This document shows positions 17,426 through 59,722 of a stretch of DNA of 64,000 bases, in pieces. Source of the DNA: Eledone cirrhosa (lineage: Eukaryota); the NCBI GenBank assembly GCA_964016885.1, contig OZ024746.1, forward strand, positions 89,652,001-89,716,000, in the 5' to 3' direction. The translations under genes and the position numbers were made by a program. Position 1 is the first letter of the stretch. Every line of letters begins with the position of its first letter. The notes under the pieces were generated by a model. It saw only the letters and a program-made list of their open reading frames with translations, had not been told where the DNA came from and did no database searches.

Positions 17426-18280
17426 TTAACTTTGCCTTTCATCCTTCCGGGGTCGATAGAATAAAGTACCACTAATGCACTGAGTAATTGCTGGCCTTGT
17501 GCCAAAAGTAGAAACAATTATTTTATCCCGGTGGATTGGCAGTATCGGTAGAGAGTTGGACGCCATGCTTTCCAGCATAGTTACGTCCCTCTACGGTCTG
17601 AGTTCAAATCCCGCCGTGGTTAACTTTGCCTTTCATCCTTACGGAGTCGATAAAATAATGTACCAGTAACGTACTGGCGTCGATTTATCGAATCCTCCCA
17701 ACAAAAAAAAAAATTACTGTCCTTGTGCCTATACTAGAAATAATTATTTTATCCATAGGGCGGTGGATTGGCAGTATCGGTAGACGGCCATGCTTTCCAG
17801 CAAAGGGTTACGGTCATTTATGATCTGAGGTCAAATCTCGCCGAGGTTAACTTTGCCTTTTATCCTTACGGGGTCAATAAAATAAAGTACCAGTAATACA
17901 CTGAGATAATCGCTGACCTTGTGTGTGTGTGTATGTGTATGTGTGTGTGTGTGTGAATACCTGGTTCAATCAGGGGTAACTGCAGAAAGAAAGGTACTCA
18001 ATATATTAGTAGTGTGTAAATATCTGTTGATTTCCTTCGAATGAAGCAGAAACAATTATTTTATTCAAGCACTGAGCGGTGGATTGGCAAAGTCTTTAAG
18101 AACGTTGGGCAAACGCTTAGCTCTATACGGTCTGAGTTCAAATAAGGCAGAGGTCTTCTTAAATCTTTCATACTTTCGAGGTAGATAACATGAAGTAACA
18201 GTTAAGTTCTGGGGTTTGAATGATCAACTTTCCTCTACTTCTAAATTGCTTTGTGGCACAGTTGAAAAAAAATATTTTAT
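17426..18280 (+). mobile_element. Cluster of four head-to-tail SINE copies (17426-17524 partial, 17530-17748, 17760-17923, 18077-18280 diverged)
   Basis: Repeated GGTGGATTGGCA heads, B-box-like GAGTTCAAAT, CTTTCATCCTT core and AGAAA(C/T)AATTATT ends. Confidence 0.85.
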
Positions 18281-26879: not shown

Positions 26880-27580
26880 CAAAACAATGTGGAGATGCTG
26901 TTATGAGTTCATTCCTATGATTCAAAAGCCTTCATGCTAACATAGTGGTTTCATTGGTTTACGAAATACAGCGGGATCAGAACTTTCCACCTCCATCATT
27001 CGCCTTTACGAAATCCACAATCGACCACTGCAGATTATAGGATGATTTAAATGTATTTAAAGAAATGACAAACGTTGCTGAGGATTTGGAGCTGTTTAAA
27101 AGGTCATTCTTAGAATAATGAAACTGGCAACTGTAACGGGTTTTTAATGAATTGGTGGTAACACCTATGTAGAAGTTAATCGAATAAGTGGTATATACAA
27201 TGCAGTTATTAACTATATTTTTCTCAAGGCATGGATAGCCTTGTAAAGGAAAATTATAAGAAATTATACAGTTAGAATCAGAAATAGATTTGGTATCGTT
27301 CCCAGATGTGGGTCGAGGAAAATCATTATTAAAGTGTATCTAAATTGCTATTTTATTAAAAATGTTCGTATTAGTATTAGACTTTATCAAGTTCGTGGTT
27401 TTAGTGAGGATAGATAGACTTAGATTAGGGATTTCACGGTGGTTACATAAGGTTGTATAGTCTGATGAATTAGGTGCTGCAGAAAATGCTACATTAACTG
27501 TGTTATTGTTAATTGAGAAATGGTACCTATGTTCAGCTAGAAAGTTTCTAAGATGTTGAAAAATAACTTTTTCAGGGAGT
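26880..27580 (-). mobile_element. Degenerate PLE linker plus GIY-YIG fragment (Naiad-like)
   Basis: HRYH..NNNTVNVAFS..PN, then CLEKNIV...FYIGVTTNSLKTRY...LQWSIV...KF*SRC...LNHRNELI (manual translation). Confidence 0.7.
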
Positions 27581-33167: not shown

Positions 33168-33390
33168 AGGTCCCAAGGAAGATCGAGGGTAGCCATATTT
33201 TAAAAAGATACTCAATACATTAGTATAGTGTAAACATTATTTTTTAATATTGCCTTTCATCCTTACGCGGTCGATAAAAGAAAGTACTAGTAATGGTGGC
33301 CTTGTACCAAACGTAGAAACAATTATTTAATATAGAAATTACTTCTACAACATCAGAACTGTTTCTTTCGTATGAAATCATCATAAGTAT
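33168..33390 (-). mobile_element. PLE family B-like end (degenerate HHR plus tail, collinear), interrupted by a SINE fragment
   Basis: Minus strand reads ATGATGA (33384-33378) TTTC-ATAC-GAAA GAAA CAG...TTG TA^GAAGTAATTTCTAT, then a tail with TATTGAGTAT at 33217-33208. Confidence 0.55.
33251..33328 (+). mobile_element. 5'-truncated SINE fragment
   Basis: GCCTTTCATCCTTACGCGGTCGATAAAA...GTAGAAACAATTATT. Confidence 0.8.
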
Positions 33391-33650
33391 GAAGTAGTTC
33401 TATTCCTGTAGAACTCAGTTCTCTCTCTCTCACTCTCTCCCTCTTTATTTCTCTCTATTTCTCTCTCTCTCTTTGCTCCGAACGCGTCAAGGAACAGTCT
33501 TTTTTTTCTCAGGGGGTTTCTTGGTAAGCCCTATCAACCTCACGGTGATGATGCAGGGCGAAACTGGTGTCGGGACTTTGAAGGAAAAATAGATATATTT
33601 TTGTCTATTATTTCTTCATATTTTATAATTTGACACACACACACACACGC

Positions 33651-41953: not shown

Positions 41954-42379
<426 letters not shown>

Positions 42380-42609: not shown

Positions 42610-42779
42610 CGTGTGTGTGTGTGTGTGTGAATCAGACCATTCACCGACAAGCGAAAATAGAATCCATTCAGTTGACTCTACTTCCTCACACATCTTGAGA
42701 TTACGGATGATTTCTGAAGAGGTTACAGAATCTCATGAAAGGAGCAAACATTTCATTCATAGGCGTCATGAAGCTTTGT

Positions 42780-44988: not shown

Positions 44989-45517
44989 TACATACTCTAT
45001 ATTTATATGGGCGGGTGTATTTTAATGCACATGTACATACACACACCATATATATTAATCCCATTATCCATCAATTTCTTTACATCTTTCATAATATTAG
45101 CTTTGTCCACGTTGTTACAACATCATGGCTATAGTTTAGTACTTAATTTATCGATCTGCATTTGACAAACATCAAATGTACTGTTTACAATGAAACAATT
45201 GTCATGATCAAAGATCGACACACGTGTATTAACGACCGCCATAATTAATATACCATTCTGAGGGCATCTAATAGGCCCATTTTGTAAATGTTCACTACAT
45301 ACATATCCGCTCAACGTTTCTAAACATCGATCATTGTTTACATTCTGTAACGGAGCTTCATCAGCCTCGCTTCGTAGCGAAGGTAACTCGTCCGTGCAGC
45401 ATACAACAAATGTGAATGCAGATTCCATGAACGACGATATCGTACTTCATCCGTCCTGGAGCTTTCATGCCCATTATGTTAAACTATTATTCATTATAAA
45501 AGACACGTGCGTTGAAG

Positions 45518-49031: not shown

Positions 49032-50010
49032 TCAGATTATATGATAGCTCATGAGAATATTGAGGAAATTGAAGGGGTGTTTTTCTATAATAATATTCTG
49101 AATGGAACTCGTAGGGATTGCACACGTTTTCGCCGCCCCTGTCAGGCTCTGGACAAGCGCCAACCTCTTTGCTAGCACCTTAGCCAAAATCATAACCTCT
49201 GTATAAAGCAGAGTTATGGACCTGAAGATATCTGAAACGTCATACTTTTTCGAAACTTTCCTCATCAGCGTTACTAATACTAGACTTACAGAACTGGGGA
49301 TTCTCTGGCAATACACAGCTGTGAGGTGGATGGAATACAGGCCTGGCATGACTACATAAGCTTCAGAGAGCAGACGATGTAAACCGGGCGGTATACGCCT
49401 CATACAGCTAGCCTGGGCTTCCCAATTCTCGGCTGCAGTTATCGCCTTTTCTCAGATCCCTAAGCCAGTCACCGAGAATGGCGGTTGGCCTTCGAGGTGA
49501 GAATTGAAGTCCGCCGCCTACTTCAACACCCCGCTCGCGCTGAACACTTGTGCAAAGCGCCTGGGAAAAGCTCCCCAGACCTCATTAGCATGGATTAGCA
49601 CGCGTCAATCTCGGTGTGTCAAAACACTGAATCATGGTTTGTTACCACGCTACTCCTGTGCCATTCGTACCCATCGAACAGTTTTCGTTCTCTCGTTTAT
49701 TAGAGAACGTGTTTTAGCTCTGACAATGCAGTCTTGGTGTTATACATTGAAAAATGGTCTAGTGTCATTCTCACTAAAACCTTGGTTGCAATGCCACTCC
49801 AAATGGCAACAACTTCACTAAATGCTATTGATTCTATTCCATTTTCTCACTGTTTTTGACGAGTGCTTCTGTCAGATTTCTCTGGTCTGAAGTCCTAATC
49901 TGTTTGCTGTGATCTTTGAGTGCCGGGAAGAAATGTTTGTAGCTTCCAGTACAGGGTCCCTGTCAGGGAGTTCTATCGAGTTCGACCATGCAGATCACGA
50001 ATTCGTGGTT
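49032..50010 (-). mobile_element. Degenerate L1/Tx1-clade LINE RT fragment
   Basis: FRSITLLYTEVMILAKVLAKRL...TCAIP..SIQN in ORF 49032-49403 resembles the RPITLLN-KILAK-LA-RL block of L1/Tx1 RTs. Confidence 0.7.
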
Positions 50011-51418: not shown

Positions 51419-51463
51419 AGTCACTGAAGAGGTTACATAGTGTGTGACGAAAGGACTATGACT
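51419..51463 (+). ncRNA. Compact type I hammerhead ribozyme with intact core
   Basis: Stem I AGTCA/TGACT, CTGAAGA 51424-51430, stem II GTTACAT/GTGTGAC, GAAA 51449-51452, minimal stem III AGGACT, CTA triplet at 51456-51458. It lies inside a ~33-bp inverted repeat (51255-51288 / 51596-51630). Confidence 0.75.
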
Positions 51464-59480: not shown

Positions 59481-59536
<56 letters not shown>

Positions 59537-59539
<3 letters not shown>

Positions 59540-59678
59540 GTTATTCCGGGTTGAATCGGAGGTAACCACAGTAAGTAATATACTCAATACATAGCAGAGT
59601 ATAAAAGTTTTAATATAGATGAGATTCTATTAATGAATGAAACAGTTCTAGTCCTGTAGAATCTCATCTATATTAAAA

Positions 59679-59682
<4 letters not shown>
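59537..59682. mobile_element. PLE micro-element (family C): inverted tail plus HHR 3' half, in (TA)n
   Basis: Homolog of 42061. Perfect 25-bp inverted repeat 59605-59629 / 59657-59681, GAAA 59639-59642. Confidence 0.65.

Positions 59683-59722
<40 letters not shown>

What the first reader, a model, noticed from the sequence alone, without database searches (positions are those of the whole stretch)
59537..59682. Inverted tail begins at the predicted hammerhead cleavage site
Seen: the minus-strand tail runs from 59629 to 59537 and starts TA^GAATCTCATC, the same sequence that follows GAAA-CAG..CTG on the plus strand at 59657. This gives a perfect 25-bp hairpin in a 146-bp insert. Inference: the piece looks like a cDNA of the ribozyme's 3' cleavage product, which would be fossil evidence of in vivo cleavage. 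The inversion also rebuilds a long stem I around a degenerate core.
Basis: partly seen in the sequence, partly recalled or inferred. Interest (0 to 1): 0.7.

Follow-up and report, generated by a model that had tools for sequence, protein, structure and literature searches.

The report
Penelope stub overshoots hammerhead cut site
This is one of about ten thousand short, back-to-back stubs of a Penelope-type jumping gene; its inverted arm starts two bases before the predicted ribozyme cut and its other arm runs straight through it, so this copy likely does not record cutting, although under 1% of sister copies end exactly at the cut and may do so.

Summary
The sequence is as described: a perfect 25-bp inverted repeat in a 143-bp insert within (TA)n. 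It is two head-to-head, 5'-truncated arms of the pLTR of a Hydra-type Penelope-like element with about 10,000 tail copies and a conserved type I hammerhead. The tail arm starts at -2 (+1 = first base after the predicted cut), and the partner arm (-28 to +23) spans the cut. The CUGAUGA box is missing, so the hairpin is not a ribozyme. In a junction-blind sample, 144 of 154 arms run through the cut and 85 of 154 stop at -36 to -46, the first base of stem I, 30 nt below a TATA box (likely transcription start). A small peak at +1 is real: about 0.65% of arms against 0.2% background. Those arms usually have partners confined to the 3' product (15 of 16 read by eye; 12 of 16 by script). Part of the peak is palindrome joining (14 loci, against 16 at a control palindrome). 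The scan noted both patterns before on other DNA of this genome.

The parts
59486..59538 (.). (TA)n target microsatellite, left flank
59539..59629 (-). Tail arm of the pLTR, element coordinates -2 to +89 (+1 = 59627); 3' end at the family's fixed +89 end
   Evidence: 88 of 91 bases identical to natural copy L035; tail arms end at or near +89 in the sample
59630..59630 (.). One untemplated T at the inversion junction (3 nt, TAT, if the tail arm is taken to start at +1)
   Evidence: alignment to L035
59631..59681 (+). Short arm, element coordinates -28 to +23: loop and 3' half of stem II, GAAA, stem III, GUA and the 3' strand of stem I; lacks CUGAUGA
   Evidence: 50 of 51 bases identical to L035; partner 3' ends cluster at +15 (17 of 55) and +24 (20 of 55)
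59658..59659 (+). Predicted scissile bond (GUA^G) of the family hammerhead; spanned intact by the short arm
   Evidence: core anatomy in 37 distinct copies; position follows from the established hammerhead consensus, not assayed
59605..59681 (+). 25-bp perfect hairpin formed by the overlap of the two arms
59682..59716 (.). (TA)n target microsatellite, right flank
42063..42194 (+). Second two-armed stub of the same family in the window
   Evidence: blastn, 84.5% over 142 columns; sequence

Best explanation
This insert is two head-to-head, 5'-truncated arms of the hammerhead-bearing end of a Penelope-like element in a TA repeat, likely written by that element's reverse transcriptase from both nicked target strands on RNA that had not self-cleaved. 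Shown: the arm coordinates (-2 to +89 and -28 to +23), the fixed family 3' ends (+89; +15 or +24), the pile-up of 5' ends at the start of stem I, and a full-length family member with an RT plus GIY-YIG ORF. Inferred: the RNA starts at about -45 (TATA box at -30, initiator-like CCAGATT); each nicked strand primes at one of the fixed internal sites; most cDNAs run to the RNA's 5' end and are joined with 0-6 nt of overlap or a few added bases. In this copy both cDNAs stopped early, and the -2 end is an ordinary early stop. A sub-1% minority of sister copies, ending exactly at +1 with both arms inside the 3' product, likely came from cleaved RNA.
For: Junction-blind sample, the first 100 of 10,076 exact tail 21-mer matches, gave 99 distinct tail arms and 55 inverted partners. 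144 of these 154 arms cross the cut, 85 stop at -36 to -46, 6 stop at +5 to -4, and 1 stops exactly at +1. Genome-wide, 5,301 arms stop at -39 to -45 (16,551 carry the anchor), against 304 at +6 to -4 (13,798 anchors; 26 of the 100 listed belong to another variant) and 524 at -4 to -15 (18,941 anchors; 19 of 30 loci checked were true ends). Per position this is 6.8-8.4% at the stem I start, 0.65% at +1, 0.41% at -2 and 0.20-0.23% background. The TATA box lies 29-33 nt above stem I in 27 of 29 distinct upstream sequences with a TATA match, 20 of them at exactly 30, while the spacer varies. No recurrent leader or upstream exon follows the 88 of 137 arms that do not read through -47; the recurrent sequences are the partner arm. 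The tail arm stops more than 10 nt earlier than its partner in 12 pairs and the reverse holds in 3 (p = 0.035), as in this copy. [quoted passage not shown] Frangieh 2024 (PMC11167929, main text parts 1-2 read): a PLE protein nicks and extends both strands, starts internally at two sites, uses uncut RNA as its main substrate, and no RNA-seq reads began or ended at the hammerhead site.
Against: The -2 class is about twice background (0.41% against 0.22%), and some apparent -2 ends are +1 ends followed by a chance TA, so a cleaved template for the tail arm of this copy is not excluded. The transcription start is inferred from motifs and end counts only. The same place also resembles a splice acceptor (T-rich tract plus CAG), and in D. 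virilis an intron end maps to the 5' end of helix I (PMC4209133, passage read). A cap-derived extra C could not be separated from partner-arm bases. Priming from both strands on one or two RNAs is not shown in vivo. The sample is the first 53.5 Mb of one contig, not a random draw.
Confidence: 0.75

Rival explanations
1. The tail arm of this copy is the cDNA of the 3' cleavage product (+1 to +89) plus three untemplated bases (TAT), joined to a cDNA from a second, uncut RNA.
For: +1 is the highest position near the cut: 22 of 87 ends against 13.5 expected (p = 0.013), about 3 times background. 59 loci join a +1 arm to a whole-hammerhead arm, and the +1 arm is the tail arm in 15 of 20 read by eye. 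Inserts of a few bases are common at these junctions.
Against: It needs two added bases that match the template by chance. Where an arm ends exactly at +1, the partner reaches upstream of the cut in only 1 of 16 cases (by eye; 4 of 16 by script), whereas here it reaches -28. The 59 stem I joins have a 6-bp microhomology that explains them without cleavage. The tail arm is the shorter one generally (12 to 3).
Confidence: 0.12
2. One cDNA folded back or switched template and copied itself, giving the inverted arm; no second priming event took place.
For: Many pairs have near-equal arm ends, also away from the hotspot (-10/-9, -57/-56, -169/-175). Stem I and GA(T)TC are self-complementary.
Against: The short 3' end (+24) also occurs in direct orientation at the end of a full-length element (L205). 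Self-copying through stem I predicts that the short arm starts at +1, which was seen in 2 of 20 loci against 15 of 20 for the opposite. This junction has no microhomology.
Confidence: 0.1
3. A longer insertion was later shortened by a deletion in the palindrome centre, which left the junction near the cut by chance.
For: Long palindromes are unstable (general knowledge). 6 of 98 ends near the cut were internal deletions.
Against: Both arms are nearly identical to a natural copy (88 of 91 and 50 of 51), which suggests a young insertion. Early stops with short inserts occur all along the element.
Confidence: 0.03

Closest known systems
Hydra clade of C-terminal EN+ Penelope-like elements (Craig et al. 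2021, PMC8557442; abstract, passages and section 11 read)
   Same: Single RT plus GIY-YIG ORF, DKT, CxCX5C linker, CxxC and CxH motifs, (TA)n target, canonical hammerhead, pLTRs, inverted 5'-truncated copies and a tail on one end only.
   Different: RWR instead of RWK. The tail is about 65-74 nt rather than 30-40 bp. That paper does not map 5' ends onto the hammerhead in the passages read.
Anolis Poseidon element PAc (Frangieh et al. 2024, PMC11167929; parts 1-2 of 4 read, supplements not seen)
   Same: Two internal start sites that define the tail, cleavage and extension of both strands at AT-rich DNA, and uncut RNA as the main substrate.
   Different: PAc is Penelope/Poseidon clade and its ORF starts inside the hammerhead. 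No reads were found at its cut site, whereas this family shows a small genomic excess at +1.
Minimal type I PLE hammerheads (Cervera and de la Pena 2014, PMC4209133, passages read; review PMC6765202, passages read)
   Same: Type I core in the pLTR, palindromic helix III, likely dimer-active; two natural copies co-fold with swapped helix III at -21.2 kcal/mol.
   Different: Helix III is longer here (4 bp around a CUAG-containing loop), and the base of stem II is a U-U mismatch rather than G10.1-C11.1. Cleavage was not assayed.
R2 and L1Tc retrotransposons with 5' HDV-like ribozymes (PMC6765202, passages read)
   Same: A ribozyme near the 5' end that can define the RNA's 5' end.
   Different: There the ribozyme releases the element RNA from a co-transcript. 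Here under 1% of arms end at the cut, and most end at a promoter-like site.
L1 twin priming
   Same: Head-to-head inversion made by two primers at a cut target.
   Different: L1 arms do not overlap. These arms overlap extensively and have two fixed 3' ends.

Membership tests
Hydra-clade PLE | Single ORF with RT and C-terminal GIY-YIG | tested here: met
   L205 open frame with YRDD and YIG; Pfam GIY-YIG only E = 0.012, below its cut-off, and no RVT hit
Hydra-clade PLE | RWK motif, no GxKF/Y | tested here: inconclusive
   RWR present and GxKF/Y not seen, read from the translation
Hydra-clade PLE | DKT in place of DKG | tested here: met
Hydra-clade PLE | CxCX5C linker; CxxC and CxH around the conserved E and N; no CCHH | tested here: met
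   motifs read by eye from the translation against section 11 of PMC8557442; no profile alignment
Hydra-clade PLE | (TA)n target and canonical hammerhead in the pLTR | tested here: met
Hydra-clade PLE | Phylogenetic placement with reference Hydra RTs | not tested
   no reference sequences fetched
Type I hammerhead (family copies) | CUGANGA, GAAA and NUH core with stems I-III | tested here: met
   CTGATGA in 32 of 37 and GTA in 34 of 37 distinct copies; A-U to C-G double change in stem I in 3 of 37; loop II varies while its stem is fixed. Rfam gave no hammerhead hit in the window at E <= 1, and the monomer MFE is not the hammerhead fold
Type I hammerhead (family copies) | Self-cleavage activity | not testable with these tools
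   needs an assay
Type I hammerhead (this copy) | CUGANGA box present | tested here: not met
   absent from 59539-59681
cDNA of a 3' cleavage product (this copy) | 5' end exactly at +1 and no arm crossing the cut | tested here: not met
   arms start at -2 and -28
Non-LTR retrozyme | Tandem non-coding hammerhead monomers | tested here: not met
   the insert is a head-to-head stub of a coding element's pLTR; definition from bioRxiv 10.64898/2026.07.22.740005, part 1 of 5 read

The most novel reading that the evidence does not exclude
The genome holds a two-peak map of this element's RNA 5' ends: a large peak at the transcription start, on the first base of the hammerhead, and a small base-exact peak at the scissile bond, where both arms are confined to the 3' product. 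The second peak (about 40-100 of some 14,000 arms) would be fossil proof that a minimal PLE hammerhead cuts in the germ line, but only in about 1 of 100-300 templates that get inserted.
Probability: 0.5. Interest if true: 0.55.

Novelty: new member of a known kind. Interest (0 to 1): 0.3.

Why it matters
[quoted passage not shown] This copy does not settle it. The family's end map makes the question directly testable: it predicts a capped 5' end at about -45, a rare 5'-OH end at +1, and that uncut RNA is the normal template. It also warns that junctions near a hammerhead cut can arise from stem I and palindrome microhomology alone.

Tried and rejected
Rfam scan of the window: no hammerhead hit, mainly microsatellite-driven miRNA matches and one tRNA. 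RNA evidence: no RNA holder listed. Laying four contig runs (one study) on the locus showed only that the family is abundant; no piece spans the insert, so it is uninformative on this junction. Cap signature: C follows 7 of 13 arms ending at -45, but these bases can be the partner arm's first base or stem I fold-back, so it is inconclusive. Spliced or trans-spliced leader at the CAG before -43: no recurrent foreign sequence among 137 arms; not supported, not excluded. The recurrent GA(T)TC hairpin junction as proof of cleavage: rejected, because it occurs at 14 loci against 16 at the CTAG control palindrome (p = 0.86). Without that class the +1 excess is 18 of 71 against 11.1 (p = 0.022; overall chi-square p = 0.065), and partner confinement is 11 of 12 against 14 of 32 by eye (p = 0.006) but 8 of 12 against 13 of 32 by script (p = 0.18). 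The first DNA search favours look-alike junctions and was not used for counts of end positions. The arm-orientation table had an offset error and was not used; that count is by eye. Naiad, Neptune and retrozyme readings were rejected on domain order, motifs and layout. Lunse et al. 2017 was not held. A sequence look-up in earlier findings gave nothing.

Full report
Observation. The insert lies at 59539-59681 between two (TA)n runs. Positions 59605-59629 and 59657-59681 are a perfect 25-bp inverted repeat with a 27-nt loop; 300 base shuffles gave at most 16. I number the element from the predicted scissile bond (+1 = first base of the 3' product). The minus-strand arm is -2 to +89 (88 of 91 bases identical to natural copy L035), the plus-strand arm is -28 to +23 (50 of 51), and one T lies between them. 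So the tail arm includes two bases that belong to the 5' product, and the other arm crosses the cut. The CUGAUGA box is absent and the RNA folds as a plain hairpin.

Family. A 21-nt tail word has 10,076 exact matches in the 3.0-Gb genome. [quoted passage not shown] Its DKT, CxCX5C, CxxC and CxH motifs and the (TA)n target match the Hydra clade as described in section 11 of PMC8557442. The RWK motif reads RWR, Pfam gave only a sub-threshold GIY-YIG hit, and no tree was built. The pLTR holds a type I hammerhead: the core box is intact in 32 of 37 distinct copies, GTA in 34 of 37, stem I shows a double change in 3 of 37, and loop II varies. The monomer does not fold into the hammerhead as its minimum-energy state, but two copies co-fold with swapped helix III (-21.2 kcal/mol), as proposed for PLE hammerheads (PMC4209133).

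Where arms stop. I fetched all 100 places listed for the tail word (first 53.5 Mb of contig C1), a sample blind to the junction. It gave 99 distinct tail arms, 55 of them with an inverted partner. Partner 3' ends cluster at +15 (17 of 55) and +24 (20 of 55). Of the 154 5' ends, 85 lie at -36 to -46, 31 beyond -60, 6 at +5 to -4, and 1 exactly at +1; 144 cross the cut. Genome-wide pattern counts agree: 5,301 ends at -39 to -45, 524 at -4 to -15 and 304 at +6 to -4, against anchors of 16,551, 18,941 and 13,798. After correcting for filter retention (simulated from 117 real junctions), for indels (11 of 30 loci in the -4 to -15 class) and for a variant family (26 of 100 listed), the rates per position are 6.8-8.4% at the start of stem I and about 0.2% elsewhere. 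Position -45 is the first base of stem I, in a CCAGATT initiator-like word (consensus recalled). A TATA box lies 29-33 nt upstream in 27 of 29 distinct upstream sequences that had a TATA match, 20 at exactly 30. I read this as the transcription start; it is inferred. A splice-acceptor reading is possible (PMC4209133 maps an intron end to helix I in D. virilis), but no recurrent upstream exon was found among 137 arms.

Is there a peak at the cut? Of 131 arms ending at +1 to -4, 100 were listed and 98 analysed. Six were internal deletions, and I collapsed five duplicates by hand, leaving 87: 22 at +1, 21 at -1, 23 at -2, 6 at -3 and 15 at -4. Uniform stopping predicts 13.5, 16.4, 22.6, 8.6 and 25.9; +1 is in excess (p = 0.013), at about 0.65% of arms against 0.41% at -2. 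Sixteen of the +1 and -1 cases are joins through a small imperfect palindrome at +1 to +5. That junction is no commoner (14 loci) than a control palindrome inside stem III (16 loci), so it is not evidence of cutting; without it the excess is 18 of 71 against 11.1 (p = 0.022). The more telling sign is the partner. Where an arm ends exactly at +1, its partner starts at or downstream of +1 in 15 of 16 cases, against 14 of 32 for arms ending at -2 to -15 (p = 0.001; four calls corrected by eye). The raw script counts are 12 of 16 against 13 of 32 (p = 0.034), and 8 of 12 against 13 of 32 without the palindrome class (p = 0.18). Filter bias is too small to explain the corrected contrast. A further 59 loci, which the filter excludes, join a +1 arm to a whole-hammerhead arm through the 6-bp stem I homology; they need no cleavage and, if counted as +1 ends, dilute the confinement to about half. 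About 40-100 arms (0.3-0.7%) are therefore candidates for cleaved templates.

Mechanism. Shown: the anatomy and the end distributions. Inferred: the element protein nicks both strands of (TA)n, primes at two internal sites (+89 and +15 or +24), copies uncut RNA towards its 5' end, and the two cDNAs are joined. This follows the in vitro behaviour of the anole element (PMC11167929: both strands extended, two internal starts, uncut RNA preferred, no reads at the hammerhead site). The tail arm is usually the one that stops early (12 pairs against 3), as here. This copy, with a -2 end and a partner reaching -28, does not fit the cleaved class; I give that reading 0.12.

Novelty. Inverted, tailed, hammerhead-bearing PLE stubs are described (PMC8557442, PMC2377424 passages). 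Five paper searches listed no study that maps genomic PLE 5' ends onto the hammerhead; supplements were not read and many journals are not held. Earlier agents of this scan reported the promoter-like pile-up and a minority of ends at the cut on other DNA of this genome. I had reached that reading before looking; those notes are unchecked and are not independent support. Verdict: the finding itself is an ordinary stub; interest 0.3.

Noticed in passing
G000 genome-wide counts: Two hammerhead words are strand-biased (8,159 against 10,782; 6,690 against 9,861) while the +6 to +21 word is balanced (6,890 against 6,908). This suggests about 2,600-3,200 extra same-strand hammerhead units somewhere, perhaps a tandem array.
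   Followed up: no
L291:743-1900 and L292:600-1300: Tandem repeat of 312 nt carrying a hammerhead core like this family's, in (TA)n, with an inverted terminal arm in L291; retrozyme-like. Similar arrays were noted earlier by the scan (e1-8673873, e1-8668780).
   Followed up: partly
L207-L210, L293: A variant of the tail (about 85-88% identical) with a microsatellite in place of the adjacent hammerhead and a different hammerhead further downstream. It forms inward-facing pairs 0.4-9 kb apart that enclose other PLE-type ORFs in L208-L210.
   Followed up: partly
window:42063-42194: Second stub of the family; the tail arm has a 17-nt deletion and meets the partner at stem I, a +1-type junction.
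   Followed up: partly
window:59383-59482: Another repeated stub between (TA)n runs directly left of the finding, abundant in the laid runs. A similar sequence follows the 3' end of the full-length element in L205.
   Followed up: no
window:60257-60280 (-), 49248-49268 (-), 45317-45364 (-), 51424-51452 (+), 27462-27485 (+), 42714-42740 (+): Further CUGANGA...GAAA motifs. Many other hammerhead families occur in the fetched loci; several have a TATA-like word 16-20 nt above stem I, which would put their start inside the ribozyme.
   Followed up: no
window:16630-16731, 17957-18020, 33205-33417: Older, 74-87% identical relatives of the tail and hammerhead.
   Followed up: no
L341, right of the +1 end: The sequence beyond this +1 end looks like a U6 snRNA piece (recalled resemblance, not searched).
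   Followed up: no
window:40104-40174 (-): tRNA match above the Rfam gathering score (42.1 bits).
   Followed up: no
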